Positions 13,717-64,000 of a stretch of 64,000 nt of DNA are shown one piece after another (position 1 is the stretch's first letter; each line of letters begins with the position of its first letter). Position numbers and translations under genes: made by a program. Origin of the DNA: Phyllobates terribilis. Lineage: Eukaryota. The notes beneath the pieces were generated by a model that worked only from the letters and a program-made list of their open reading frames with translations, was not told where the DNA came from and did not search any database. The stretch is from the NCBI RefSeq assembly GCF_046119375.1, contig NW_027362762.1, positions 932,232,001 to 932,296,000 on the forward strand. The letters are read 5' to 3'.

Positions 13717-14935
13717 TTTCCTACTTTAATTCACCCTGGAAAAGCAATAAAGTGAAGTCAGATCCTCCTTTAGTGTATTATCAGCGTTATCGGCTCATCC
13801 AGGACACGACGTATGGTTCTCAGAATACAGCCGTCCATGTTTGATCCAGCGAGATCTCCGCTAATTACCTGCTTCTGACACTCGGATTCCATTACTGTAG
13901 ACACAGGAATGGCGGCTCGGCCATATACGTCTGTGCCCGGTAACGCTGAACTTTTTTTTTTTTTCACCCCTATTAAAAAAAAAACGCTTAATAGGGAATG
14001 TGTGTCATCAGAGGAGAATGGCGTATTGTTTATTAGGATAGATGGAATTTTTTAAGTTTTTTTCAGCTTTTTTTTTTTGCTCCAAACTGATTACGACTTT
14101 AGCACCATTTTTCCCTTTTTTTTTTTTTTAGTCCTCGTTATAAATGTGTTGGATTTTCTTGTCGTTGATCATAAATCGAATTGCTCGCTGTAGACTTCAA
14201 TGCAAGTTGCATGGGATGTGTGTTCAACTTATTTGTGATTTTTTTTTTTAACGCAAAACTCAAAGCTCTAAAATAGTCACACGGATGTTTATTTATTTTT
14301 TTTTTACACTACTTTTCCGACATCTTCACCAGTCTCAGATCACAATGTAGGGATCGGCTGCAGTTCTCCCGCCCTGAGAGTGATAGCCTCATAGAAATAT
14401 ATGCTAGAGTCGGGAGACTCCAGCATATATTTATTGAAATGCTTTATGTGCCTCAAAATAATACCAATAAAAATCACAGCTCACCATGCAAAAAAAAAAA
14501 AAAAAAACACACAACAGCCCTCAGCGGAAAAATAAGTTACAGAAAATACACCATCGACAAAAACCAAAGATCGTATTTTGTTTTAAAAAAATAAATAAGG
14601 GCCTTCTTTTAAACCACTAAAATAATAATGACTGCAGAAGTTTGGTATCGCAGCATCTGTATTGACCTGAACAATCACATTTCCAGGTCGTCAGCACAAC
14701 GAAACCAAAAAAATGGCAGAAATTAGGGAAGGGGGTTCTAGTTTCTCCTCACTTTTATCCCTTTTTCAGTACATTAACGGTAAAATAAATGGGGGGCATT
14801 CAAAACTGTATAAAAAAAAAAAAAGTTGTTGGGAAAGTGAGGGGTTAACCGGTGATCCTGAGGCGGCTGACACGTCGGCCCAGAGACGGCAGCGGGACCG
14901 ACCGACCGACCCACCCGTCGGCCCAGAGGCGGCGG

Positions 14936-17122
14936 CTGACATGTTGGCCCCACAGTGGCTGATACGTTAGCCCTGAGGCGCCGGTGACTGACATGTTGGC
15001 CCCCACAGTGGCTGATACGTTAGCCCTGAGGCGCCGGTGACTGACATGTTGGCCCCCACAGTGGCTGATACGTTAGCCCTGAGGCGCCGGTGACTGACAT
15101 GTTGGCCCCCACAGTGGCTGATACGTTAGCCCTGAGGCGCCGGTGACTGACATGTTGGCCCCCACAGTGGCTGATACGTTAGCCCTGAGGCGCCGGTGAC
15201 TGACATGTTGGCCCCCACAGTGGCTGATACGTTAGCCCTGAGGCGCCGGTGACTGACATGTTGGCCCCCACAGTGGCTGATACGTTAGCCCTGAGGCGCC
15301 GGTGACTGACATGTTGGCCCCCACAGTGGCTGATACGTTAGCCCTGAGGCGCCGGTGACTGACATGTTGGCCCCCACAGTGGCTGATACGTTAGCCCTGA
15401 GGCGCCGGTGACTGACATGTTGGCCCCCACAGTGGCTGATACGTTAGCCCTGAGGCGCCGGTGACTGACATGTTGGCCCCCACAGTGGCTGATACGTTAG
15501 CCCTGAGGCGCCGGTGACTGACATGTTGGCCCCCACAGTGGCTGATACGTTAGCCCTGAGGCGCCGGTGACTGACATGTTGGCCCCCACAGTGGCTGATA
15601 CGTTAGCCCTGAGGCGCCGGTGACTGACATGTTGGCCCCCACAGTGGCTGATACGTTAGCCCTGAGGCGCCGGTGACTGACATGTTGGCCCCCACAGTGG
15701 CTGATACGTTAGCCCTGAGGCGCCGGTGACTGACATGTTGGCCCCCACAGTGGCTGATACGTTAGCCCTGAGGCGCCGGTGACTGACATGTTGGCCCCCA
15801 CAGTGGCTGATACGTTAGCCCTGAGGCGCCGGTGACTGACATGTTGGCCCCCACAGTGGCTGATACGTTAGCCCTGAGGCGCCGGTGACTGACATGTTGG
15901 CCCCCACAGTGGCTGATACGTTAGCCCTGAGGCGCCGGTGACTGACATGTTGGCCCCCACAGTGGCTGATACGTTAGCCCTGAGGCGCCGGTGACTGACA
16001 TGTTGGCCCCCACAGTGGCTGATACGTTAGCCCTGAGGCGCCGGTGACTGACATGTTGGCCCCCACAGTGGCTGATACGTTAGCCCTGAGGCGCCGGTGA
16101 CTGACATGTTGGCCCCCACAGTGGCTGATACGTTAGCCCTGAGGCGCCGGTGACTGACATGTTGGCCCCCACAGTGGCTGATACGTTAGCCCTGAGGCGC
16201 CGGTGACTGACATGTTGGCCCCCACAGTGGCTGATACGTTAGCCCTGAGGCGCCGGTGACTGACATGTTGGCCCCCACAGTGGCTGATACGTTAGCCCTG
16301 AGGCGCCGGTGACTGACATGTTGGCCCCCACAGTGGCTGATACGTTAGCCCTGAGGCGCCGGTGACTGACATGTTGGCCCCCACAGTGGCTGATACGTTA
16401 GCCCTGAGGCGCCGGTGACTGACATGTTGGCCCCCACAGTGGCTGATACGTTAGCCCTGAGGCGCCGGTGACTGACATGTTGGCCCCCACAGTGGCTGAT
16501 ACGTTAGCCCTGAGGCGCCGGTGACTGACATGTTGGCCCCCACAGTGGCTGATACGTTAGCCCTGAGGCGCCGGTGACTGACATGTTGGCCCCCACAGTG
16601 GCTGATACGTTAGCCCTGAGGCGCCGGTGACTGACATGTTGGCCCCCACAGTGGCTGATACGTTAGCCCTGAGGCGCCGGTGACTGACATGTTGGCCCCC
16701 ACAGTGGCTGATACGTTAGCCCTGAGGCGCCGGTGACTGACATGTTGGCCCCCACAGTGGCTGATACGTTAGCCCTGAGGCGCCGGTGACTGACATGTTG
16801 GCCCCCACAGTGGCTGATACGTTAGCCCTGAGGCGCCGGTGACTGACATGTTGGCCCCCACAGTGGCTGATACGTTAGCCCTGAGGCGCCGGTGACTGAC
16901 ATGTTGGCCCCCACAGTGGCTGATACGTTAGCCCTGAGGCGCCGGTGACTGACATGTTGGCCCCCACAGTGGCTGATACGTTAGCCCTGAGGCGCCGGTG
17001 ACTGACATGTTGGCCCCCACAGTGGCTGATACGTTAGCCCTGAGGCGCCGGTGACTGACATGTTGGCCCCACAGTGGCTGATACGTTAGCCCTGAGGCGC
17101 CGGTGACTGACATGTTGGCCCC
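14936..17122. repeat. 53-bp GC-rich minisatellite, about 41 near-identical copies
   Basis: Unit atgttggcccccacagtggctgatacgttagccctgaggcgccggtgactgac; only the terminal units differ (one C shorter). Confidence 0.98.
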
Positions 17123-23138: not shown

Positions 23139-24206
23139 TTCTTCAAGCAGAAGATCGATCACATCAGAGAAAGCTTTGGCCTACAACCCCCACAACCCCT
23201 CCTCATAACTATTCAGTCCTCCTCCTCCAAATCCAGCTCATACACCATTACTGAAGATCAACTTTCCTCTCTACTCTCAAGATCACATGTCACCACCTGT
23301 GCGCTCGGCCCGATCCTGACCTACCTCATCTCAAACCTCAACACATTCTTCATCCCAACCCTAACCCATCTCTTCAACCTGTCACTAACAACTGTTGTTT
23401 TCCCCTTATGCTTCAAATATGCCTCGATCACACCCATCCTCAAAAAGCCATCCCTTGACCCATCCTCTCTGACTAGCTATTACCTCTTATCACTTCTACC
23501 CTATGTCTCAAAACTACTAGAACAACATGTCTTGAACTGTCCTCCCACCTCTCCTCCTGCTTCTCTTTGACCGCCTCCAATCTGGCTTCCGACCGCATCA
23601 CTCCCCTGAAACTGCACTGACTAAAGTCACCAACGACCTACTAACTGCCAAACTCAAGCGACACTACTCTGTCCTCCTACTCCTGGACCTGTCATCTGCC
23701 TTTGACACAGTGGACCATTCCCTCTTACTACAGAATCTCTCATCTATCGGCATCACAGGTTTGGCCCTATCCTGGATCTCCTCATACCTAACAGACAGGA
23801 CATTCAGTGTCTCCCACTCACACACCACCTCCTCATCTCACCCCCTATCTGTCGGTGTCTCACAAGGCTCAATTCTTGGACCCCTACTCTTCTCCATCTA
23901 CACCTTCGGCCTGGGACAGCTCATAGAGTCTCACGGCTTTCAGTATCACCTCTGATGACACACAGATCTACCTCTCTGGACCCGATATCTCCTCCTTACT
24001 AACCAGAATTCCAGTGTGTCTGTCCACTATCTCATCTTTCTTCACTGCTAAATTTCTAAAACTCAACCTGGATAAAACCGAATTCATCATCTTTCCGCCA
24101 TCTCACTCAGCCTCCCCATCTGACCTATCTGTCATAGTCAATGGCTGCCCACTCTCCCCAGTCCCGCAAGCCCGCTGCCTCGGGGTAACACTGACCTCTC
24201 CTTTAA

Positions 24207-25047
24207 GGCTAAGTGCCCACGATGCAGAAATGCTGCATATTTTTTCCGCATCTCCCTGGCAGGAAAAACGCATGCGGATTTTACATGTGTTTTTCCCGTC
24301 CGGTAGAAGCATTTGTCAAGCGTTTTTGCATGCGGGTTATCAAGTTCTTTTCCAAGCGATTTTAGCATCACTTAGGAAAGTGCTTGAAAACTTGGTCACA
24401 CCATATAAATCCATGCAACCGGCGTATATAGTGTGACCAAGTTAATAGTTAAAAAAAAAAAAGAATAAGAATGGTAAAAAATAAAGATTATACTTACCTT
24501 CTCTGCTGCGTCCCGTCTCTTGTACTGCTCACGGTGGTGTGAAAGGACATTTCATGACGTCATTTAGTCATGTGACTAAATTACGTCATGGAAGGTCCTT
24601 TTAGACCATCGCAAGCTGTACAAGAGACCGGATGCATCGTTGAGGAGACCGGGGGCCATCAGAAGGTAAGTATAATCTTTATTTTTTATTTTAAATTCTT
24701 CTTTAACAGGTACCATGGTACCCGGGTCTGGAGGAGAGTCTCCTCTTTTCCAGACCTGGGTACCATCCGCACATTGAATCGCTTAATATCCGCATGTGCA
24801 CATGTAGTGATGCGGATATTATGCGATTCAGTGGCGGCAGTTACGCTGCGTGACCGCAAAATTAATGGACGTGCTGCATATTTTTCCGCAATGATAATCC
24901 GCAGCGGAAATTTCCGCAGCATGTGCACAGCACATTCGGATTATCATTGGGGACCATGGGGCACGTGTTACCAAGCGTTTTTAAGCGTTTTCGCTGAGGA
25001 AATTCCGCGACGAAAACGCTTGATAAATGCATAGTGGGCACACAGCC
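24207..25047. mobile_element. PIF/Harbinger-type MITE inside the L2 RT
   Basis: TIR GGCT..GTGCCCAC / GTGGGCAC..AGCC; TAA TSD. Removing it restores L2 DLSFKPHI. Confidence 0.88.
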
Positions 25048-25670
25048 TAAACCACATATCCAAGCCCTTTCCACTTCCTGCCGACTCCAACTGAAAAATA
25101 TTTTCCAGATCCGCACATTCCTCAACCACGAATCTGCAAAAACACCAGTGCACACCCTCATCATCTCCCGCCTCGACTACTGCAACTTCCTGCTCTGCGG
25201 TCTCCCCTCTAACACTCTCGCACCCCTCCAATCTATCCTAAACTCTGCTGCAAGACTAATCCACCTGTCCCCCCGCTATTCCCCAGCCTCTCCTCTCTGT
25301 CAATCTCTTCACTGGACCCCCATTGCCCAGAGACTCCAGTTCAAAGCCCTAACCAAGACATACAAAGCCATCCACAACCTGTCTCCTCCATACATCTGTG
25401 ACCTAGTCTCCCGGTACATACCTGCACGCAACCTCCGATCCTCAGAAGATCTCCTTCTCTACTCCCCTCTTATCTCCTCTTCCCACAATCGCATACAAGA
25501 TTTCTCCCGTGCATCCCCCCTACTCTGGAACCCTCTACCCCAACACATCAGACTCTCACCTACCGTGGAAACCTTCGAAAGGAACCTGAAGACCTACCTC
25601 TTCCGATAAGCCTACAACCTGCCGTAACCATCGCTCTACCATACCGCTGCACTACTAGCTCTACCCTCAT

Positions 25671-37599: not shown

Positions 37600-37840
37600 C
37601 TCACAGCTCCATTGGCAGAAAAATACAAAAAATTGGTTCTCGAAATATGGCGACACAAACAAATCTTTTTTTTCCTTTTTTCAACCCTTCTTTAAATTTT
37701 ATTTAAAACCAGTAAAAAAATATATACAGTACAGACCAAAAGTTTGGACACACCTTCTCATTTAAAGATTTTTCTGTATTTTCATAACTATGAAAATTGC
37801 ACATTCACACTGAAGGCATCAAAACTATGAGTTAACACAT

Positions 37841-38347
37841 TAACCAGGGGAGGAGTCCTGAGGAGATAATTTGCATATTCCCACTGCATTTTGGGGTAAG
37901 TGAAGAGTCTCCGCGAGCTCAAAGAACACTGGATTTTGGCTGTTGGAGCTGAAAAGAGGACATCGGTAAACCAGGGGAGGAGTCCTGAGGAGATAATTTG
38001 CATATTCCCACTGCATTTTGGGGTAAGTGAAGAGTCTCCGCAAGCTCAAAGAACACTGGATTTTGGCTGTTGGAGCTGAAAAGAGGACATCGGTAAACCA
38101 GGGGAGGAGTCCTGAGGAGATAATTTGCATATTCCCACTGCATTTTGGGGTAAGTGAAGAGTCTCCGCAAGCTCAAAGAACACTGGATTTTGGCTGTTGG
38201 AGCTGAAAAGAGGACATCGGTAAACCAGGGGAGGAGTCCTGAGGAGATAATTTGCATATTCCCACTGCATTTTGGGGTAAGTGAAGAGTCTCCGCAAGCT
38301 CAAAGAACACTGGATTTTGGCTGTTGGAGCTGAAAAGAGGACATCAG
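37841..38347 (+). repeat. Four tandem 127-bp monomers in the CR1 5'UTR
   Basis: Units start at 37841, 37967, 38094 and 38221; differences are limited to one or two positions per unit. Confidence 0.97.
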
Positions 38348-38432
38348 TAAACCACGCACCTACCGGCGCGCGCATTTTGAAGCTTTTTTTTTAAGCTTTT
38401 TTCACTGTTTTCAGAACATTAACAATAAGAAC

Positions 38433-39395
38433 ATGGAAGAGTCCAGGAGCCATTTGGTGAGCTGCATATCCTGCTACATGTTCACAGACTTGCCAGTGGA
38501 AAAGCCAAACTTCACATGCCAGAAATGCAAGCTTGTGTCCCTGTTGGAGGAAAAGTTGCGAAATCTAGAAGAGAGGTTAACTACCTTGAAAATCATTAAG
38601 GAAGGTGAAGAGTTCTTAGACAGAGCAGAATTATCTCTTCATGATTCAGAAAGAGAAGAAATTCGAACTGCACCTGACGAAACAGAGGAATGGAAGCATG
38701 TGACCCACAGAAGCAGGAGGATCGAGAGGCAGTCAGCACCCATACTGCTCAGGAACCAGTACCAGGCTCTCACACAGGAGAACCATGAAGAAATACAGCA
38801 AGATAAGACTTTGCCAGCAATGAATAACCTTGTAAGCCCTCAGAATCCTCCTGGATGGAGAAAGAAGAATGTTGTGAAGAAAAAACGGAGAGTGGTGGTC
38901 ATGGGGGATTCCCTGTTAAGAGGAACAGAGGCCGCTATCTGCAGACCAGACATAACCTCAAGAGAAATGTGCTGTCTTCCAGGAGCAAAAATTAAAGATG
39001 TGTCTGACAGGATATCAAGACTCTTCAGACCTACAGATCACTACCCATTCCTGCTAATACATGTGGGGACAAATGACACCGCAAGAAAGGACCTGGAAAC
39101 CATCTGCAGTGACTTTGAAGACTTAGGCAAGAAAGTGAAAGAATTGGGAGCGCAGGTGGTCTTCTCATCCATCCTCCCAGTGGATGGCCATGGAACAATG
39201 AGGTGGAATAAGATTCTACAGGTGAACAACTGGCTACGTCGATGGTGCCGTCAACAAGGATTTGGATTTCTGGATCACGGAATGAATTACCTATACGATG
39301 GACTACTTGCTAGAGATGGGGTGCACCTTACGAAGACTGGAAAACATGTATTTGGAAGTCGCCTTGCTACACTCATCAGAAGAGCTTTAAACTAG
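38433..39395 (+). CDS. CR1 ORF1p (N-terminal Cys finger/coiled coil + SGNH esterase)
   Basis: 320-aa open frame; CISCYMF...CQKC, GDSLLRG, IHVGTND, DGVHL. Confidence 0.93.
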   Translation: MEESRSHLVSCISCYMFTDLPVEKPNFTCQKCKLVSLLEEKLRNLEERLTTLKIIKEGEEFLDRAELSLHDSEREEIRTAPDETEEWKHVTHRSRRIERQSAPILLRNQYQALTQENHEEIQQDKTLPAMNNLVSPQNPPGWRKKNVVKKKRRVVVMGDSLLRGTEAAICRPDITSREMCCLPGAKIKDVSDRISRLFRPTDHYPFLLIHVGTNDTARKDLETICSDFEDLGKKVKELGAQVVFSSILPVDGHGTMRWNKILQVNNWLRRWCRQQGFGFLDHGMNYLYDGLLARDGVHLTKTGKHVFGSRLATLIRRALN

Positions 39396-51959: not shown

Positions 51960-53735
51960 GAACGGGTCCAGCAGTATAGGCAAAGTAACTCAGCGATATA
52001 GCAGAGCTTGGTTTGTCACAGAGTTCAAAATAGAACTGGCACATCAATACAACAGAGTAACCAAGTTATACAACAGAGCTGGGTCTATTATGAAGTCCAA
52101 GGGAAAGCTAGCACAGTGATAAGGTATGGGAGCCCAGCGACATATCACAGATGGGTTTGTCGCCGAGTACAAAGCTGAGTTGATCAGGGGCATTGCTGAG
52201 CTTGCTTTGTCACAGTATCCAAGGCAGAGCTGACTAGCGGTATAGCAGAGATGCCCAGTGATATTGCAGAGCTGGGTTTGTCGCAGAGTTCAAGGCAGAT
52301 CTGACCAGCAGTATAGTGCTAAGTTTGTAACAGAGTTCAAAATAGAACTGGCACATAAATAATGCAGGGTGTCCAAGTGATATAACAGAGCTGGGTCTAT
52401 TATGAAGTTCAAGGGATAGCTGGCACGGTGATAAGGCATGGGATCCCAGTGACATAACAGAGATGGGTTTGTCACCAAGTACAAGACTAAGCTGATCAGG
52501 GGCATTGCTGAGCTTGGTTTGTCACAGTATCCAAGACAGAGCTGACTAGCGGGATAGAAGAGTTGGCCCAAGATATAGTAGAGCTTGGTTTGCCAAAGAA
52601 TTCAAGACAGATCTGACAAGCAGTATAACAGAGTTGCCCAGTGATGTAGCAGAGTTGGGTTTGCCACAAAATTCAAGGCATTTCTGACCAGCAGTATAGC
52701 AGAGTTGCCCAGTGATATAACAGAGCTGGTTTTGACACAGAGTTCAAGACAGATCTGACCAGCAGTATAGCAGAGTTGCCCAGTGATATAACAGAGCTGG
52801 TTTTGACACAGAGTTCAAGACAGATCTGACCAGCAGTATAGCAGAGTTGCTCAGTGATATAACAGAGCTGGTTTTGACACAGAGTTGAAGACAGATCTGA
52901 CCAGCAGTATAGCAGAGTTGCTCACTGATATAACAGAGCTGGTTTTGACACAGAGTTCAAGACAGATCTGACCAGCAGTATAGCAGAGTTGCTCAGTGAT
53001 ATAACAGAGCTGGTTTTGACACAGAGTTCAAGACAGATCTGACCAGCAGTATAGCAGAGTTGCTCAGTGATATAACAGAGCTGGTTTTGACACAGAGTTG
53101 AAGACAGATCTGACCAGCAGTATAGCAGAGTTGCTCACTGATATAGCAGTGCTAAGTTTGTAACTGAGTTCAAAATGGAACTAGCACATAAATAATGCAG
53201 GGTGACCACGTCTATTATGAAGTTCAAGGGATAGCTGGCACAGTGATAAGGCATGGGAGCCCAGAGACATAACAAAGATGGGTTTGTCACCGAGTACAAG
53301 ACTGAGCTGATCAGGGGCATCGCTGAGCTTGGTTTGTCACAGTATTTAAGGCAGACCTGACTAGCAGGATAGTAGAGTTGGTTCGAGATATGGCCCGAGA
53401 TATACCGGATCCGGGTTTTCCAAGGCAGAGGCAGAGCTGATCAGCCTTATAGCAGATTTGCCCAACGATATAGCAGAGCTGGTTTTGTCACAGATGTCAA
53501 GGCAGAGCTGACGAGCAGTATAGCAGAGCTGACGAGCAGTATAGCAGAGTTGACCAGCGGTAAGGCACCGTTGACAAGTGATGTAGCAGAGGTGTGTCTG
53601 TCATAGAGTTCAAGGAAGAACTTACCAGCAATGTAGCAGAGTTGCCGAGACATATAGCAAAGCTGGATTTGCTACAGCGTTCAAGGCAGAGCTGACCAGT
53701 GGTATAGAAGAGTTAGTAGCAGAGCTGGGTTTGTT
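51960..53735. repeat. Complex satellite: three blocks of about 310 bp plus six near-perfect 71-bp units
   Basis: gagttcaaaat.gaact.gcacat at 52021, 52333 and 53166; ttttgacaca at 52730, 52801, 52872, 52943, 53014 and 53085. Confidence 0.85.
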
Positions 53736-54319
53736 AGAAGGTTGCCGCCTGAGCCAGGTGATACGGCCCGAAATAAAGAAGTCACTTAAGTGCAACAGAT
53801 TTCCATGGAAACCCGACTCACAGATCCCTAATTTACCAGGTCTCCAAAATTTTAACAAATCGGGCAAATTTGGTTATGACCCAGTCAAAAATAGGTGTGG
53901 TTTACATAAACCTTACTCAAACGTGGACACATCTGTCGTTCATCTATTCTACTAACCGAGATTAGTTTATGAAAGGGAATGAGGCCGTCCCAACGTACGT
54001 CAGCGGGCAACAACTTCCCCACGATGGGCAATGATGGAGAATTACGGAACCCACTGACTATAATAGGGTCTGTTAGGGTTTCACCATTTGGATGGAAAAA
54101 AATAATGATAATGGCAGATGTAAACCTAAGTCGCAAAAAAATGGTCAATGTTATGCACTATCCCCTAATAATGCAGTGCGCTTTCTCTTACTATCTTGTT
54201 TCAAAGGTCTCTGATTATGAAAATAAAATTTGCAAAAATAAATTCAACTTTAACTGAATGAAAACAAAAAAAAAAGATAACATGATTCAGATCATCAGAA
54301 AAACGAGATGGAAACCAAA

Positions 54320-54650
54320 ACACGCAGAGGCCGGCGGCGGCGGCGCGCCCGGGGCGTTCACGAGCGGCTGCAGCTAATCACGTGATTTCCCCCTCTGCTT
54401 CTCCTACTTCTCCACTGTTATTGGTCGGATCAGGTGGCAATCAAATGACTTCAGCCAATCAGAAGACAAGTTATGATCGCTGCTCTCTGGAGGGGAGGGG
54501 CGAAGGAGCGGCGCAGTCCGCTGCTTTTCAGCCTGGACAGAGATGAGGAAGATCCCGAGAAGGTGACGAGGCGGCGAGATGTGTGTGAGTCCCCGCGCCC
54601 TGTGACGTGTGCTCCGCACGGCATGCTGGGACTTGTAGTTCCAGCAAGTA
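54320..54650. promoter_or_regulatory. CpG-rich promoter with a candidate first exon ending at 54584 (plus strand), gene unidentified
   Basis: TCACGTGA 54378-54385, ATTGG 54420, CCAAT 54455, ZNF143/THAP11-type motif 54621-54640, donor TGT|gtgagt at 54585. Confidence 0.6.
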
Positions 54651-54839
54651 GTTGTGGTGTATCTGTGCACTGTATGGCGGCATTATTTCCTCCTGTGTGT
54701 TATTGGGCGCTGTATGGTGTCACCATTGTATGTTATCATTGTCCTGGCACTGGGGTTCCTCTATATTCTGTAGTGGCACTCTGTCACTTCCCCATGGTAT
54801 TATTTTGACACCTTAATGTCTCCATTGTATGGTGGAGTT

Positions 54840-55352
54840 ATCCTGGCATAGTATGACGCTGTTATCACCTATTATATGGCGGTATTATTTTGGTTAGTGT
54901 GGCGCTGTTATTACCTATTGTATGGCGGTAATATTATGGCACTGTTATCACCTATTGTATGGCGGCATTATATTGGGTACTATGGCACTGTTATTACCTA
55001 TTGTATGGCGGTAATATTATGGCACTGTTATTACCTATTGTAGGATGGTATTATTTTGGTGTGGCACTGTTATTACCTATTGTATGGCGGTATTATATTG
55101 GTTACTATGGCCCTGTTATTACCTATTGTATGGCAGGATTATTTTTGTTAGTATGGCACTGTTATCACCTATTATATGACGATATTATATTGGTTAGTAT
55201 AGCGCTGTTATCACCTATTATATGGCGGTATTATTTTGGTTAGTTTAGCGCTGTTATCACCTATTGTATGGCGGTATTATATTGGGTACTATGGCACTGT
55301 TATTACCTATTGTATGGCGGTATTATTTTGGTTAGTATAGCGCTGTTATCAC
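54840..55352. repeat. Degenerate AT-rich minisatellite, about 44-bp unit
   Basis: Repeated ggcactgttattacctattgtatggcggtattat; resumes at 63185 after the MITE. Confidence 0.85.
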
Positions 55353-56001
55353 CAGGGCTGTGGAGTCGGTAAGCCAAACCTCCGACTCCTAAATTTCCAT
55401 GACTCTAACTCCACGCCTCCCTCATACATGGCTCATGTGATGGTGATAAATTTACTGCAGCACAGATTCATCTCAGCTAAAAAGTATAAGATGTACCGTA
55501 TAGTACTAAATGGTATAATGAAAAAACAAAAAATAGGAAATGTGTTGCCCAGAAAAAATGGGACAATCCTATATAGGTACAGTCAAAGAGTCCTATGAGA
55601 TACCCCCTCACAGGTAAGCTGGTAGAGTCTTATAGGTAGTAATAGTGATAGAATCCACCAACAGACCATACCCTTTCTAGCACAATTCCCACCCGGCAGT
55701 AAACCATATCAATTACAGAAACCATATCAATTACAGCCACACTATTAATAGGCTTACATACCGATACATGGCCATAGGGAATAGTACAGGCTAACTTAGT
55801 ACATGTAAGATCAGCCAAACATATATATATGCAAAAAGACAGTCAAATTACGTCTGTGGTTAACTAAACCATGTAACCACATAAAAATTATACCACCATA
55901 TACTCGTGGTGTCAAAAATACATCATTCGATCATAGAGGAAACCTATTCAACTTATCTGATCCTCCATTGATGATGGTATGAGAAGACATATGTAGGCGG
56001 G

Positions 56002-56035
56002 CTCCCGACGCTTTTCCCTTTTGTCATCAGGGGAG
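56002..56035 (-). ncRNA. Type I hammerhead ribozyme motif, mutated copy
   Basis: CTCCC CTGATGA caaaagg GAAA AGCG TC GGGAG; C-to-A change at the first stem III position relative to the 61937 copy. Confidence 0.7.
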
Positions 56036-56733
56036 TAAATATGCCCAGATTTATGCCCCCATTTGCTTGAATATGTTGGACGGCTGATTTATTTCCAGAA
56101 ATGATCATGGTGCTTCTTATACACATGCTGCACGCTAGACCCGGCGGTGCACTTCCGGGTATGACGCAATATCCTGTACGCGGTCACAAATGAGTGACAA
56201 CATCCGGTCACATGGAGAGCACCATTCCCGCGCATGCGCACATGGTATTCAATAGGATTCCTCTTTCATACCACATGCTGGCAGGGGGCGTGTTGGTAAA
56301 TACACGCTCATCATGGTGACGCTCCGGATGCAGAGCTCATTACGATATATCCGCATCACAGAGTGATCCAGTGAACTCAAAGCACAAAATCGATGAGATC
56401 ACTCCGGATCACATACCACAGAGTAAAGTGCAGTACCTGGTCACAGTATTAAGATAGATACATATATATACACAGGATCACTGAGGTCAAGAGATACAAT
56501 AGATAGAACAAAAAACCTGAGGAATATAGAAAATAATCATGTAGGGGCCCCCCGAGCTCGCATGGACACGACCAGAGGATATGTAAGAACAAGGTGGGAA
56601 AAAGTATGAGGAGGACCTATCGTAGCCCTAGATTAAAGCTAATATAGTAGCTGGCCCTACCCAACGCGGAGGTTGGCACCCTATGGGGAACGAGATTGGC
56701 GCCCCCACTCGTCGGCGGCTGGCCCTACTTTTC

Positions 56734-59700
56734 CTAGTCCCTGTAAGGCCCTCTGATTACAAAAAAAGAGATGAAGGATAGTTGTTCATTGAGACCATGT
56801 GGTTGCAATGTCTTAAGGCAAAAAATCCATTTACATTCTTTTTGTAAGATCCTTTGGTCCCAATTTCCCCCTCTATCAGAAGGTTTTATCCTGTCCATTC
56901 CCATAAACTGGATGTATCTGACATCTCCACCATGCATAGTATTGATGTGGTTAGATGCCGGAGTGTCACCTTTGTTAACAATGTCACGAACATGTTCTCT
57001 AATTCTCTTTCTAAACTCACGTTTTGTCTTGCCCACATATTCCATGCCACAGCGACATGTGGCCTTGTATATTACTCCGGTGGTGCGACAATTGATGAAA
57101 TGTCTTATGGTGTATTCCTTCCCAGTCACATTTCCAAAAAAGGTCCTGCCCTTCGTCACGGACTCACAAGCACAACAGTTTCCACACCTATAGCAACCCT
57201 TGGTTTGATTGCCCAGCCATAATGGATCAGGGGTCTCCTTGAAAAAACTATGTACCAGCCTATCCTTGAGTGACCTACCTTTACAAAAAGTGATTTGAGG
57301 AAAAGGACCCACTGCCTCTCTGACGTCTGCATCCATAAGCAAAATAGGCCAGTGACGTTTGAGAATCTCTCTGACCTCATTGGCCCCACTGGAGAAAGTG
57401 GTGATAAATCTAGAGATATCCACCTCTCCTTTAACAGTCTTAGGGGTCAATAGAGTCTTACGATCTTTTACCAATGAGTTATTGTAGGCTTCTGAAAGAA
57501 TGTTTTTGGGATAGCCTCTCTCAACAAAACGTTCACGTAGGTCATTGGCCTGTTTTTTAAACACATTAAGGTCAGAACAATTTCTACGTATCCTCAAATA
57601 TTGTCCTTTTGAGATTCCTCTTTTTAGTGGGCCAGGATGACCACTCTCCCACCTCAAGAGAGAATTAGTGGCCGTAGGTTTTCTAGAATTGCTTGTGCTC
57701 AATTCACCATTTTCTTTTCTCTGAATGCAGACATCGAGAAACGGCAGTCTGTTATAATTGCACTCATACGTAAATCGTAGGCCGATATTATTCGTGTTAA
57801 GTTGTGTAACAAAGTCACCAAAGAGAGATTCAGATCCTCTCCAAATGACGAATATGTCATCAATATATCGTAGCCAGATGATGACTCTGTCACTCAAAGG
57901 AATGGCAGGTTCACAGAAAACCTTTGTTTCCTCCCACCAGCCCAGGAACAAATTAGCATACGAGGGGGCACAAGGGCTCCCCATCGCAGTGCCCCTGAGC
58001 TGGTGGAAGTACTTTTTATCAAAAAGAAAGAAGTTTCTGGTAAGACAAAATTCAAGGGAACATAGAACAAAGGTGTTGTGTCTACTAAATTGACGACCTC
58101 TAGCACCTAGGTAATGGTCCACCGCTTTAAGACCCATCGCATGTGGAATGGATGTATATAATGCTTCTACATCGATGCTACATAAAATCATGTCAGATTC
58201 AAGGCAGACCCCATCCAGTTTACTCAATAGGTCTGTGGTATCGCGAACATGCGAGCTCAGGGACCCCACAAATGGTTTAAGTATACGATCAAGATAAATA
58301 CCCAAATTTTGTGTGAGACAATTAGTACCCGCCACTATAGGTCTACCCTTCAGGGGATTGCAACCCTTATGTATTTTGGGCAGACAATAGAAAGTAGCCA
58401 TAGTCTGATACTGTGGACAAAGAAAATCCCTTTCTTTATTAGCCAAAAGTCGAGTGGCAACTCCCTCATCAACGAAAAGCTTCAGCTCCCTTAAAAGACC
58501 TGTTGTGGGATTAGTGGCAACAACTTCATAACTCGTACGATCTTTAAGTATACGATAGTTAAGTAGTTCCCACCTTTATCAGAGTGTTTGATAGTAATCT
58601 TAGTGTCATTTTCAAGACCACAGAGACTCTGCATTTCAAGTTTCGTGAGATTATTCCTGGAAGTAGGTTTTGTAGAGGGTAGATCCATGATATCTTTCGT
58701 AACAAGATCAAGAAAGACATCTATAGATCCAGGGTCACTAGATTGCGGAGGCATACTTCTACTTTTGTTTTTGAGGGTTGTGAAGGGACCATTCCCATCA
58801 AGATTACAGTTGCTATCTCCCAGATGGTTAATGGAATCTAACATCTTGAAGTAAATCCTCTGCAATGCCCAATTCAGAACAGGTTCTCCTATTCTCCCGA
58901 TTTAAAATGTTTTTTCCACCTTAACTTCCTGATGAAAAGATTAAGATCCTTAATTAATGGTTTCAAAGTGATTCAAATCAGTGGTCGGGACAAAGGAAAG
59001 GCCTTTACTTAAAACACACATTTCTGTGCAGTTAATGGGCCTGGAGGATAGATTGATAACCTGGGATTCGTGCTGTCCAGGAGAGCTACTGTGGGGTTGG
59101 TTAATGTGGGAGTTGGGAGGTAAATATTCTCCAAAAGAGGAGGTACTGCTGGAATTTAGACGGTTGCGCAGAGGATAATTGTACTCTAAAAAACCGTCCC
59201 TTTGAGGAGATCTCCTACCACCTCCTCTATTGCCTCGATTACCCCCTCTTCCTCTCCCTTTACCCCTAGAATGTCTAGGTCGAACCTCTGAATCAGAGAC
59301 CTCAGTCTCAGAAGAAGTGTCAGTCTCAGGTCCCCTCTGAGTGCATCCTATGGATATGGAGTATGCTTTGTTATCCCTGAACTCCTGAAGGTCTCTACTA
59401 TACAGTCTATGTTTTTGTTCTTTCAGATGAAACTGAAATTTCTCTAGACCATTTTGGAGACCTATCTCCTTGTTTTGGAATTCAGGTTCTGCTGAAAAAT
59501 TTTTTGTAATTTCAATTTGTTCCTTAAGAGATTCATTCAAATTATGTAAATTCACTCTTTCCTCCTCTAACAAAAGCTTCATAAGTCTCAAGGAACTTTC
59601 TGTTGCTTCCTTTTCCCACTTGATCAATAAATTTGGATTTTTATAACGATAGCCTGGTGACAGAGCAATGCTAAGATGGCATGGTACAATGCCCGACTTA

Positions 59701-59891
59701 ATATAATTGTCCAGGCTCTGCACCTGCCACCAGGATACAATCTGATCTCTATAAGTCTTAGTAAGGTCCTTAAAGGCTGTGTTGAATGAGGGAGTATACC
59801 TCTTTTGGATAAAAGTACAGTCTGAAAAGACCTCCTTGGCCTCAGTGATCCACACTTTAGTATCAATACCTGTTGACAGGAAACCTGCCAT
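56734..59891 (-). pseudogene. Penelope-like RT/GIY-YIG ORF broken by frameshifts
   Basis: VINLS...LSKGLSFVPT N-domain, RT motifs, CYRCGNCCAC linker, GIY-YIG. Frame breaks near 58950, 58870 and 58470. Confidence 0.9.
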
Positions 59892-60392
59892 ACTATAATA
59901 AATATATTAGGATAAGCTAATGTGGTACCCAATCAATTGTACAAAAAATAGCAGAGGGATAAAAATTAACCTTTAATAGAAACGTTTAAAACAGACTCAA
60001 AGTGCAATTGTGCATCAAAAAGTATAAGATGTACCGTATAGTACTAAATGGTATAATGAAAAACCAAAAAATAGGAAATGTGTTGCCCAGAAAAAATGGG
60101 ACAATCCTATATAGGTACAGTCAACCGGAGTAATATACAAGGCCACATGTCGCTGTGGCATGGAATATGTGGGCAAGACGAAAGGTGAGTTTAGAAAGAG
60201 AATTAGAGAACATGTTCGTGACATTGTTAACAAAGGTGACACTCCGGCATCTAACCACATCAATACTATGCATGGTGGAGATGTCAGATACATCCAGTTT
60301 ATGGGAATGGACAGGATAAAACCTTCTGATAGAGGGGGAAATTGGGACCAAAGGATCTTACAAAAAGAATGTAAATGGATTTTTTGGCTTAA

Positions 60393-61155
60393 GGCTATGT
60401 GCCCACGATGCAGAAATGAAGCAGAAAATTTCTGCAGCCTTTCTGCATCTCCCTGGCAGCAAAAACGCATGCAGATTGACAAGAGCTTTCCAGGCGATAG
60501 CATCACTTGGAAAGTGCTTGACAACTAGGTCACACTGTATAAATCCATGCAACCGGCATGGATTTTTACAGTGTGAACTGTAAAAATTAAAACAAATAAA
60601 GCTATACTCACCCCCGATGCCCCGGCGTGGCTGCAGCGCTGCTTCCTGTCTGGTTCCTGGATGCCATCATATCGCGAGACAGAGCGGTGAAGGGCCTGCG
60701 GTCACATGACTGTGACGTCACCGCAGGTCCTCAAGCGATGCCAGCATTCAGAGAGAAGCCGTCGGACAGGTGAATATAACTTTGTTATTTTATTCTTTTT
60801 TTACAGGTACAATGGTACCCAGGTCTGGATGAGAGTCTTCTCTCCTCCAGAACTGGGTACCATCCGCACATAGAGACGCATAGAAGCCGCTTGTAAAAAT
60901 GTACAGTCGCGGTTTCTATGCGTCTCAATGCAAGTCAATGGCGGGAGTTCCGCTGCGCTTCCGCAAAATTAAATGACATGCTGCGGATTTTTGTACGCAG
61001 CATAAACGCTGCGGAAAAATCCACAGCATGAGCATAGAACATGCGGAATCCCTTTGGGGACCATGGGGGGCGGATTACCTAGCGTTTCACAAGCGTTTCC
61101 GCTGCGGAAATTCCGCAGCATAAACGCTTGAAAAACGCTACATGGGCACCCAGCC
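60393..61155. mobile_element. PIF/Harbinger-type MITE in the right Penelope arm
   Basis: GGCTATGTGCCCAC / TGGGCACCCAGCC ends; same family as 24207-25047; absent from the left arm. Confidence 0.88.
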
Positions 61156-61936
61156 TTAGACCATTGCAACCACATGGTCTCAATGAGCAACTATCCTTCA
61201 TCTCTTTTTTTGTAATCAGAGGGCCTTACAGGGACTAGGAAAAGTAGGGCCAGCCGCCAACGAGTGGGGGCGCCAATCTCGTTCCCCATAGGGTGCCAAC
61301 CTCCGCGTTAGGTAGGGCCAGCTACTATATTAGCTTTAATCTAGGGCTACGATAGGTCCTCCTCATACTTTTTCCCACCTTGTTCTTACATATCCTCTGG
61401 TCGTGTCCATGCGAGCTCGGGGGGCCCCCACATGATTATTTTCTATATTCCTCAGGTTGTTTGTTCTATCTATTGTATCTCTTGACCTCAGTGATCCTGT
61501 GTATATATATGTATCTATCTTAATACTGTGACCAGGTACTGCACTTTACTCTGTGGTATGTGATCCGGAGTGATCTCATCGATTTTGTGCTTTGAGTTCA
61601 CTGGATCACTCTGTGATGCGGATATATCGTAATGAGCTCTGCATCCGGAGCGTCACCATGATGAGCGTGTATTTACCAACACGCCCCCTGCCAGCATGTG
61701 GTATGAAAGAGGAATCCTATTGAATACCATGTGCGCATGCGCGGGAATGGTGCGCTCCATGTGACCGGATGTTGTCACTCATTTGTGACCGCGCACAGGA
61801 TATTGCGTCATACCCGGAAGTGCACCGCCGGGTCTAGCGTGCAGCATGTGTATAAGAAGCACCATGATCATTTCTGGAAATAAATCAGCCGTCCAACATA
61901 TTCAAGCGAATGGGGGCATAAATCTGGGCATATTTA

Positions 61937-61970
61937 CTCCCCTGATGACAAAAGGGAAACGCGTCGGGAG
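61937..61970 (+). ncRNA. Minimal type I hammerhead ribozyme, intact core
   Basis: Stem I CTCCC/GGGAG, core CTGATGA, one-pair stem II C-AAAAG-G, GAAA, palindromic stem III ACGCGT, GUC cleavage triplet (cut after C61965). Confidence 0.85.
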
Positions 61971-62502
61971 CCCGCCTACATATGTCTTCTCATACCATCA
62001 TTAATGGAGGATCAGATAAGTTGAATAGGTTTCCTCTATGATCAAATGATGTATTTTTGACACCACGAGTATATGGTGGTATAATTTTTATGTGGTTACA
62101 TGGTTTAGTTAACCACAGACGTAATTTGACTGTCTTTTTGCATATATATATGTTTGGCTGATCTTACATGTACTAAGTTAGCCTGTACTATTCCCTATGG
62201 CCATGTATCGGTATGTAAGCCTATTAATAGTGTGGAAGTAATTGATATGGTTTACTGCCAGGTGGGAATTGTGCTAGAAAGGGTATGGTCTGTTGGTGGA
62301 TTCTATCACTATTACTACCTATAAGACTCTACCAGCTTACCTGTGAGGGGGTATCTCATAGGACTCTTTGACTGTACCTATATAGGATTGTCCCATTTTT
62401 TCTGGGCAACACATTTCCTATTTTTTGGTTTTTAATTATACCATTTAGTACTATACGGTACTAGACCCTTAGATCAGGAATAGGACAGACATTTATAGGA
62501 CA

Positions 62503-63031
62503 CTAGATGGACACTAGATGGTGGCCCGATTCAAACGCATTGGGTATTCTAGAATATGTATGCGGTACACCGGGCGCAATCAGCAAAGCGGTGTTTAAAT
62601 TTGGCGCCAATCGTATTAGTGAGGACCGGGGAGCGGTTCTGCCTGTGCGGGTACTTCCGTTGCGAGCAGCCGGAACATGACCGGCTGCTCGCAGCAGAAG
62701 TATCCCAATCGGCGGCGCCGCTCCCCGGTCCTCTCTTCACACTTGCCGTCGGGAGATCAGTGGCCCTAGCCGCTGATCTCCTGACGGTAGCCGCATGAAA
62801 GGTCAGCGGCGCCGCCGGTTGGGGTGGTTCTGCTGCGAGGAGCCGGGAGATGACCGGCTGCATCGCCGCTGACCTCCGTGCGGCAGATGAGCCGCTAACG
62901 GCCGCCATCTTTTTCTGAAATCCCGCGTCGCTGATTGGCCTCGGCCGGACCAATGAGCGATGCGGGATTTCCTGGACAGAAGGACAGACAGACAGAAAGA
63001 CAGACGGGATAAGACAATTATATATATTAGA
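62503..63031 (-). mobile_element. Non-autonomous Helitron
   Basis: Minus strand 5'-TC...cccaatgcgtttgaatcggg hairpin...CTAG-3', inserted between A and T of the MITE, no TSD. Confidence 0.8.
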
Positions 63032-63198
63032 TTTCATAACTTTCCCAAATTCTTATGAAAAAATATTCCCCACAAACTGCATTGAATTACTGCACCCAAT
63101 TTATTATATATCTTAGGAGTCGGAGTCAGTCCATTTTATACCGACTCCACCGAAATGGACACCGACTCCTTATCCACAGCCCTGGTTATCACCTATTG

Positions 63199-64000
63199 CA
63201 GGGCTCGACAAACCCAGGCGCCTGGTCGCCAGTGGCGCCTAGAAAATGTTGTCTGGCGCCTAGCCCACACACCCACCCGCCCACTCACTGTCGGGGCCCG
63301 GGCCCACACACCCGCCCGCCCACTCACTGTCGGGGTTGGGCCCACACACCCACCCGCCCACTCACTGTCAGGGCCCTGGCCGCTTCCTCGGCACCTGTTC
63401 AGGGACGCAGGCGCTGCTTGATTGCCGGCACTTCCCCCAGACATGGCCGCGCGCTGTCCGGCTGTGTCTGCTAGTAATGATACGGCAGGGTCGACGGCAC
63501 TGCACCTTTAATTGTGCTTGTGTGTCGCTCCTGCCGCGTCATTACTAGCAGACACAGTCGCACAGCGCGCGGCCATGTCTGGGGGAAGTGCCGGCAATCA
63601 AACATCGTCGGAGCGGAGGTCCTGCACAGATGGGCGGGAGGGGCCCGGACCCGACCGCAAGTGGGCCCCTCTGATGTTCCAGGGCCATGAAGTCTGTGAC
63701 ACGCCGGGGGCCCTGCACTGCCCCATACCCGAGGAGCTGCTGGACAGGACACTGGACCGGGGACAGGTGAGTGAGGCTTCCCCAATCCCCATATTAAAAA
63801 TATTAGTAATGGGTCTGTGTGAGTGCATGTATGTGAATGTCAGTGTATATGACTGTCTATATATATTTGTCTGTTTTATCTATGTGTATGTCTGTATGTG
63901 TACATATGTCTGCGTACCGTGTGTGCGCGCATATGTCTGCGTACAGTGTGTGCGTGCATATGTCTGCGTACCGTGAGTGCGCACACATATGTCTGCGTAC
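63199..64000. mobile_element. Start of a further hAT-like element (runs off the window), with an internal hairpin at 63420-63600 and short tandem repeats
   Basis: CAGGGCTCGACAA start; inverted arms gattgccggcacttcccccagacatggccgcgcgctg and complement. Confidence 0.55.

What the first reader, a model, noticed from the sequence alone, without database searches (positions are those of the whole stretch)
61937..61970. Intact minimal type I hammerhead ribozyme in the Penelope pseudo-LTR
Seen: CTCCC-CTGATGA-C-AAAAG-G-GAAA-CGCG-TC-GGGAG, with all core nucleotides, a 5-bp stem I, a one-pair stem II and a palindromic stem III. Known: Penelope-like elements carry such minimal hammerheads, which cleave best as dimers. 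Inference: this copy lies on the plus strand, sense to the candidate gene starting at 54.5 kb, so it may cut host pre-mRNA or pair in trans with other copies.
Basis: partly seen in the sequence, partly recalled or inferred. Interest (0 to 1): 0.8.

Follow-up and report, generated by a model that had tools for sequence, protein, structure and literature searches.

The report
Stripped-down hammerhead ribozyme in a retrotransposon
This is a self-cutting RNA motif carried by a Penelope-type jumping gene, with an unusually shrunken structure, and some copies of the jumping gene begin exactly at its cut site, which suggests it really cuts in living cells.

Summary
The motif is there letter for letter: a type I hammerhead core with cleavage after C61965. 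It sits in the inverted 5' pLTR arm of a broken Neptune-type Penelope-like element (ORF on the minus strand), inside an intron of a plus-strand host gene. A second copy lies at 56035-56002 with a damaged palindrome. Hammerheads in PLE pLTRs are known. Two things are not ordinary. (1) Stem II is one pyrimidine-purine pair (C-G, U-G or U-A across subfamilies), outside the published descriptor and Rfam. (2) Among 159 copies picked by a block 3' of the ribozyme, 6 of 27 nearby 5' ends fall exactly on the first base after the cleavage site (4 of 23 without the discovery copies, P=2e-4). None of the six has an extra G, whereas 10 of 12 ends at the promoter start 84 nt upstream carry the cap-derived G. 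This is indirect evidence of in vivo cleavage of element RNA. Cutting of host pre-mRNA is unlikely: the antisense arm, transcribed first, masks this copy. A comparison family with a longer stem II showed no such ends (0 of 60 loci).

The parts
61937..61970 (+). Type I hammerhead motif: 5-bp stem I, full core, one-pair stem II (C61949-G61955), palindromic stem III (61959-61964), cleavage between C61965 and G61966
   Evidence: pair counts
61925..61978 (+). Possible extension of helix I (61925-29 with 61974-78) beyond a 5' bulge
   Evidence: RNAalifold; 91.7% of cells paired, one-sided changes only
61733..61888 (+). pLTR promoter: NRF1-like 61733, ETS-like 61814, TATA-like 61851 (motif names recalled); inferred capped start about 61880-61885, 84 nt 5' of the cleavage site
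   Evidence: motif places; 21 copy ends at -86..-75; extra G in 10 of 12 ends at -87..-81
60124..62461 (+). Inverted 5' arm of the element: GIY-YIG end of the ORF plus a whole pLTR, split by a later insertion
   Evidence: self-BLAST; 14 substitutions and 20 gap columns in 1328 against the other arm
60393..61155 (.). Unrelated short element with inverted ends and a TTAA/TTAG target repeat, inserted into the inverted arm
   Evidence: junctions; similar sequence at 24203-25048
59892..60124 (-). 5'-truncated pLTR/leader of the non-inverted arm; lacks promoter and ribozyme; holds the zone where 3' ends of genomic copies lie
56734..59891 (-). PLE ORF in three pieces (stop and frameshifts): N-terminal part, DKG motif, RT with YIDD, CxxCxxC linker, GIY-YIG
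55479..56733 (-). 3' pLTR of the non-inverted arm
56002..56035 (-). Second hammerhead copy; C15.2 replaced by A (56012), palindrome broken
54477..54584 (+). Host gene first exon, single copy, donor at 54585; the element lies in the following intron

Best explanation
A working but slow hammerhead of a Neptune-type Penelope-like retrotransposon. The pLTR promoter starts a capped RNA about 84 nt before the cut site (inferred from copy ends). One motif alone misfolds. Two motifs swap stem I arms and pair through the ACGCGU palindrome, probably helped by the element's protein (inferred from published PLE work). A minority of transcripts is then cut after C17, losing the capped leader. Reverse transcription starts 500-630 nt downstream and runs to whichever 5' end the RNA has, leaving copies that begin at the cap site (with an extra G) or at the cut site (without). 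Selection acts on the motif during transposition, not on inserted copies. This copy is a passenger in an inverted arm: masked in host pre-mRNA, free only in RNA from its own promoter.
For: Shown: full core and PLE context. Motif identical in 6 of 10 BLAST-found subfamily B loci that are 81-83% alike over 181 nt; the other 4 have one private change. Free 7-nt linker keeps a pair at 10.1/11.1 in 97 of 100 listed rows: 44 C-G, 28 U-G, 24 U-A, 1 G-U (hand count). 6 of 27 true 5' ends in -45..+30 at exactly 0, no other position above 2; 4 of 23 without discovery copies, P=2.2e-4. Extra G in 10 of 12 ends at -87..-81, 0 of 6 at 0, 5 of 21 at other ends. Hammerhead-shaped homodimer -17.1 kcal/mol, monomer -2.9 to -4.8. 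Literature: PLE hammerheads cleave weakly and as dimers (PMC4209133); the Anolis PLE one cleaves only with its protein (PMC11167929); one-pair stem II can be active (PMC3088659; PMC544870).
Against: No cleavage assay. Predicted minimum-energy folds are not the hammerhead (monomer -8.0, dimer -20.9); pair probability of C10.1-G11.1 is 0.002. Stems I and III never vary in the 17-row alignment, so they give no covariation; whole-structure scores are reached by 24-43 of 500 shuffles. None of the six 0-ends is from the window's own subfamily (nearest +3), though two are from subfamily B with the same 34 nt. Two of six could be read 1-2 nt longer if CpG decay is allowed. A family with a 4-bp stem II had 0 such ends in 60 loci. 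Published active one-pair cases used G-C or a pseudoknot. Most copies run through the site uncut.
Confidence: 0.68

Rival explanations
1. The motif is a conserved but catalytically dead protein-binding or promoter element; ends at 0 come from a minor capped start one base downstream, whose cap-derived G mimics position 0, or from RT stalling at the structure.
For: Weak predicted folding; stem I and the palindrome are conserved as sequence across distant families; 13 further ends lie at +3..+29; no ends at 0 in the 60 comparison loci.
Against: The spike is on the one predicted phosphodiester; a start at +1 would follow a purine (initiator rule, recalled) and no end was seen at +1 or +2; stalling should stop RT at the 3' foot of helix I (+5..+12), where a separate scatter is seen; all catalytic letters are kept.
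Confidence: 0.2
2. One reading: this intronic copy cuts the host pre-mRNA and so affects the host gene.
For: It is sense to a real gene and intact; co-transcriptional folding could briefly precede pairing with the upstream arm.
Against: Upstream antisense arm gives a 1.3-kb duplex; no partner in cis; recent insertion (arms 1.1% apart); neutral decay of inserted subfamily B copies, non-CpG 16/785 against 181/9595 in flanks (subfamily A 5/562 against 122/6898).
Confidence: 0.05
3. The ribozyme cuts, but only as a by-product: it is carried along without any role in transposition.
For: Anolis catalytic mutants transpose normally in vitro (PMC11167929); Naiad PLEs lack hammerheads (PMC8557442); 73 of 159 copies reach beyond -450, i.e. 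through an uncut or religated site.
Against: 34 nt kept while flanks fall to about 55-70% identity between subfamilies (partly circular since the pattern fixed 27 letters).
Confidence: 0.07

Closest known systems
[quoted passage not shown]
   Same: Type I topology, pLTR location, palindromic helix III, dimer need, opposite-strand pairs of motifs
   Different: Their descriptor needs 3-7 bp helix II and the consensus has G10.1-C11.1; shortest helix II in their alignment is 3 bp. Here one C-G/U-G/U-A pair. They state there is no in vivo evidence.
PLE-associated small hammerheads that cleave as dimers (Lunse et al. 2017; not held; known only through a review passage)
   Same: Diminished palindromic stem III, PLE link, dimer cleavage
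   Different: Could not check whether one-pair stem II variants are included
Anolis Poseidon PLE hammerhead (PMC11167929; read main text parts 1-2)
   Same: PLE ribozyme upstream of an internal RT start; both target strands extended, fitting tail-out inverted pairs
   Different: There the ORF starts in stem II and no RNA ends were found at the cut; here the motif is about 640 nt before the ATG and genomic ends mark the cut
One-base-pair stem II hammerheads: metagenomic type II (PMC3088659, passages) and engineered miniribozymes (PMC544870, passages)
   Same: Single pair in place of helix II, active
   Different: Those use a pseudoknot or a G-C pair and act as monomers; here no conserved pseudoknot, reversed pair, and stem III also minimal
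R2 retrotransposon HDV-like ribozyme (PMC3774820, abstract)
   Same: Ribozyme cut site matches 5' junctions of genomic copies
   Different: Other ribozyme class; in R2 the cut defines most full-length ends, here a minority

Membership tests
Hammerhead ribozyme, type I | Core C3-A9, G12-A15.1, U16.1-H17 | tested here: met
Hammerhead ribozyme, type I | Three-way junction with open helix I | tested here: met
   5-bp stem I, one-pair stem II kept as C-G/U-G/U-A, stem III 6 bp only in a dimer
Hammerhead ribozyme, type I | Loop I-loop II tertiary contact or pseudoknot | tested here: inconclusive
   5' flank can pair with loop II in subfamily B but not in C (sequences); not conserved
Hammerhead ribozyme, type I | Self-cleavage after H17 | not testable with these tools
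   Only indirect: copy 5' ends at the site
Rfam hammerhead families | Covariance-model match | tested here: not met
   No hammerhead family among 11 matches at E<=10 in 52000-64000
Metazoan PLE min-HHR (Cervera 2014) | Location in pLTR; palindromic 15.2-16.2/loop 3 | tested here: met
Metazoan PLE min-HHR (Cervera 2014) | Helix II of 3-7 bp closed by G10.1-C11.1 | tested here: not met
   One C-G pair; descriptor. Not filed under this descriptor; works like it.
Penelope-like element, EN+ | RT followed by GIY-YIG, direct and inverted pLTRs | tested here: met
   Pfam RVT_1 E 0.0011 and GIY-YIG E 0.002, both below cut-off; motifs; repeats
Neptune clade | CX2-5CxxC linker between RT and EN | tested here: met
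   feature from PMC8557442 passages, shared with Nematis
Neptune clade | Placement in RT phylogeny | not tested
   No reference RT set fetched

The most novel reading that the evidence does not exclude
Genomic copies record in vivo cleavage by a hammerhead with both stem II and stem III reduced to a minimum. Cuts at two successive pLTRs release a 4.5-kb unit RNA; unligated it yields the short copies that begin at the cut, and circularised it lets RT, starting just 5' of the ORF, run round the circle to make full-length and tandem copies.
Probability: 0.3. Interest if true: 0.78.

Novelty: new variant of a known kind. Interest (0 to 1): 0.52.

Why it matters
Whether PLE hammerheads cut in vivo is an open question in the papers read. 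Scoring 5' ends of genomic copies against the predicted cut, with the cap-derived G as an internal control, is a test that needs only assemblies and can be run on any PLE family. The one-pair stem II also means current descriptors miss part of this class: 132 exact matches with the 7-nt linker in this genome beside 1,020 with longer linkers. For the host gene this copy is probably unimportant as a ribozyme.

Tried and rejected
Rfam: no hammerhead match. Sequencing runs: no RNA holder on record; the four laid contig sets cover the pLTR hardly at all, which is no evidence on expression; the letters joined to exon 1 were not displayed, so the link to the downstream receptor exons is inferred. Search for stem I variants gave 2 poorly paired hits. 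A subfamily C query ran into another repeat and was useless. A conserved loop II pseudoknot and a long extended helix I were looked for; RNAalifold found no two-sided change. Automatic furthest-reach end calling over-extended into mutated references and fold-backs and was replaced by an exact-core reference walk plus hand curation. Comparison family with 4-bp stem II: 0 ends at the cut in 60 loci, some duplicated. Earlier scan notes: none. Lunse 2017 and the Terminon paper were not held. Literature searches listed no report of PLE 5' ends at the hammerhead cut or of one-pair stem II PLE motifs; the library is incomplete and bioRxiv supplements were closed.

Full report
Observation. A loose descriptor finds two such motifs in the window and 0.005 per shuffled window (200 shuffles). 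Rfam has no hammerhead match even at E<=10.

The element. A frameshifted RT + GIY-YIG ORF runs 59891 to 56734 on the minus strand, with DKG, YIDD and a CxxCxxC linker; the linker points to the Neptune clade (PMC8557442 passages; no tree made). Its 3' pLTR (56733-55479) holds a second hammerhead whose palindrome is broken at 56012. The finding lies in an inverted arm, 60124-62461, that repeats the ORF end and pLTR and differs from the other arm by 14 substitutions in 1328 columns. The whole insert sits in a host repeat without target duplication. Tail-out inverted pairs are the rule here: 13 divergent, 3 direct and 0 convergent neighbour pairs among the 80 matches, and 15, 12 and 0 among the first 100. 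Such inverted 5' arms are described for PLEs. The genome is 10.6 Gb; an amphibian is my inference.

Host gene. 54300-54640 is single copy. Contigs of 2.6-3.1 kb in 4 of 4 laid runs match 54477/85-54584 and leave at a GTGAGT donor, so the element is intronic and this copy is sense to the host. Plus-strand exons of a class II cytokine receptor lie about 26-44 kb past the window end (Tissue_fac E 1e-9, Interfer-bind E 1.5e-5), followed by a GART-like gene; the join to exon 1 is inferred. The pre-mRNA reads the antisense arm first; the duplex is worth -65 kcal/mol over the motif and -449 over 234 nt, far more than the -17 of a hammerhead-shaped homodimer. Host cutting is therefore unlikely.

Conservation. 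BLAST-found subfamily B loci, 81-83% alike over 181 nt, keep the motif unchanged in 6 of 10 and with one private change in 4. After insertion the motif decays like its flanks in subfamily B (non-CpG 16/785 against 181/9595) and somewhat less in A (5/562 against 122/6898). With the 7-nt linker left free there are 132 matches; of 100 listed, 44 have C-G, 28 U-G, 24 U-A, 1 G-U and 3 no pair at 10.1/11.1 (hand count; few independent subfamilies). Stems I and III are invariant in the 17-row alignment and give no covariation. A further 1,020 motifs share core and palindrome with 8-16 nt linkers; 6 of 10 fetched had PLE coding matches within 1.5 kb. The published PLE descriptor needs 3-7 bp of helix II and its consensus has G10.1-C11.1. 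One-pair stems II are active in a pseudoknotted metagenomic case and in engineered G-C miniribozymes. Against activity: predicted lowest-energy folds are not the hammerhead, and the C-G pair has probability 0.002.

Fossil ends. Queries lying 3' of the ribozyme first showed two subfamily B copies starting exactly at G1.1 and one subfamily A copy at +3. To test this I took the first 100 of 231 places of a conserved downstream block and 50 further places, of which 15 were one amplified unrelated repeat and were left out. With the discovery loci (5 of 52 lacked the block) the pool was 182, and 159 after removing 23 same-place or near-identical rows. True 5' ends between -45 and +30, internal deletions and one duplicate removed by hand, number 27; six are at 0 and no other position has more than two (P=1.2e-6; without discovery copies 4 of 23, P=2.2e-4; against the downstream part alone 4 of 16, P=0.0014). 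Three of the six join non-PLE DNA, two join an inverted arm and one a 22-nt inverted piece. A larger peak of 21 ends lies at -86..-75, below TATA-, ETS- and NRF1-like motifs (names recalled). Of 12 ends at -87..-81, 10 carry a non-templated G, the mark of a reverse-transcribed cap known from L1 (PMC2912911 passage); 1 of 8 at -80..-74, 5 of 21 other ends and 0 of 6 cut-site ends do (Fisher P=0.0015). Results against: no 0-end in the window's own subfamily; 0 of 60 loci in a family with a 4-bp stem II (about 2 expected at the same rate); a capped start at +1 would mimic position 0.

Mechanism. Shown: anatomy, copy-end map, 3' ends spread 500-630 nt below the cut and just before the ATG. Inferred: capped start near 61882; dimer formation through the palindrome, in cis between pLTRs 4.5 kb apart or in trans, likely protein-assisted as in the Anolis element; cleavage of a minority of RNAs; RT running from the internal start to the cap or to the cut. 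Speculative: ligation of doubly cut unit RNA into circles, as proposed in PMC4209133. 73 of 159 copies extend beyond -450, so most templates were uncut or religated. At this locus both promoters point away from the ORF, so it is a dead-end copy; the plus-strand promoter could still make an RNA in which this ribozyme is unmasked.

Papers. Read in named parts: PMC4209133 (parts 1-2 of 4, whole supplement text), PMC11167929 (parts 1-2 of 4), bioRxiv 2026.07.22.740005 (parts 1-3 of 5; supplements closed). Passages: PMC8557442, PMC6765202, PMC3088659, PMC544870, PMC11300833, PMC7229834, PMC3846280, PMC2912911, PMC8782182. Abstract only: PMC3774820, PMC2377424. Lunse 2017 was not seen and may cover such variants.

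Verdict. Known kind, new variant. The single copy is an ordinary passenger; the family-level evidence for in vivo cutting and the one-pair stem II are what deserve follow-up.

Noticed in passing
L063:5804-6004, L064:2634-2831, L065:1784-2182, L065:4046-4179: Plus-strand exons of a class II cytokine (interferon/IL-10 type) receptor, the likely host gene of exon 54477-54584
   Followed up: partly
L068:7414-L072:9305: Divergent GART-like purine synthesis gene downstream (GARS_N E 1.9e-9); lacks an obvious match to some usual residues, not examined
   Followed up: no
window 56090 (-) and 61882 (+): The two pLTR promoters point outward: one antisense towards host exon 1, 1.5 kb away, one sense into the host intron; could affect the host gene more than the ribozyme does
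   Followed up: no
window 62003-62021: Block conserved across subfamilies about 37 nt 3' of the cut, with a GATA-like site; 231 genomic matches; role unknown
   Followed up: partly
L364-L378: 15 near-identical repeats on small scaffolds carry only the downstream block without the ribozyme: one captured pLTR piece amplified in a larger repeat
   Followed up: no
L205-L207 (C1, 277-bp period): Short tandem repeats each holding a PLE hammerhead, retrozyme-like, next to a 4.5-kb-period tandem of the same family
   Followed up: no
L311, L282, L308, L312, L332: Fold-back junctions close to the ribozyme, suggesting snap-back priming at cDNA ends
   Followed up: no
window 14789-17100; 52154-53714; 54794-55353; 37715-38476: Tandem arrays of 53, 71, about 83 and 127 bp; the 53-bp array has many identical units
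   Followed up: no
window 62618-62872 and 63412-63607: GC-rich hairpin-forming short repeats that give weak false microRNA matches in Rfam
   Followed up: no
L064:5681-8985, L066:4750-8514, L070, L074: LTR and DIRS-like retrotransposon open frames within or near the receptor gene
   Followed up: no
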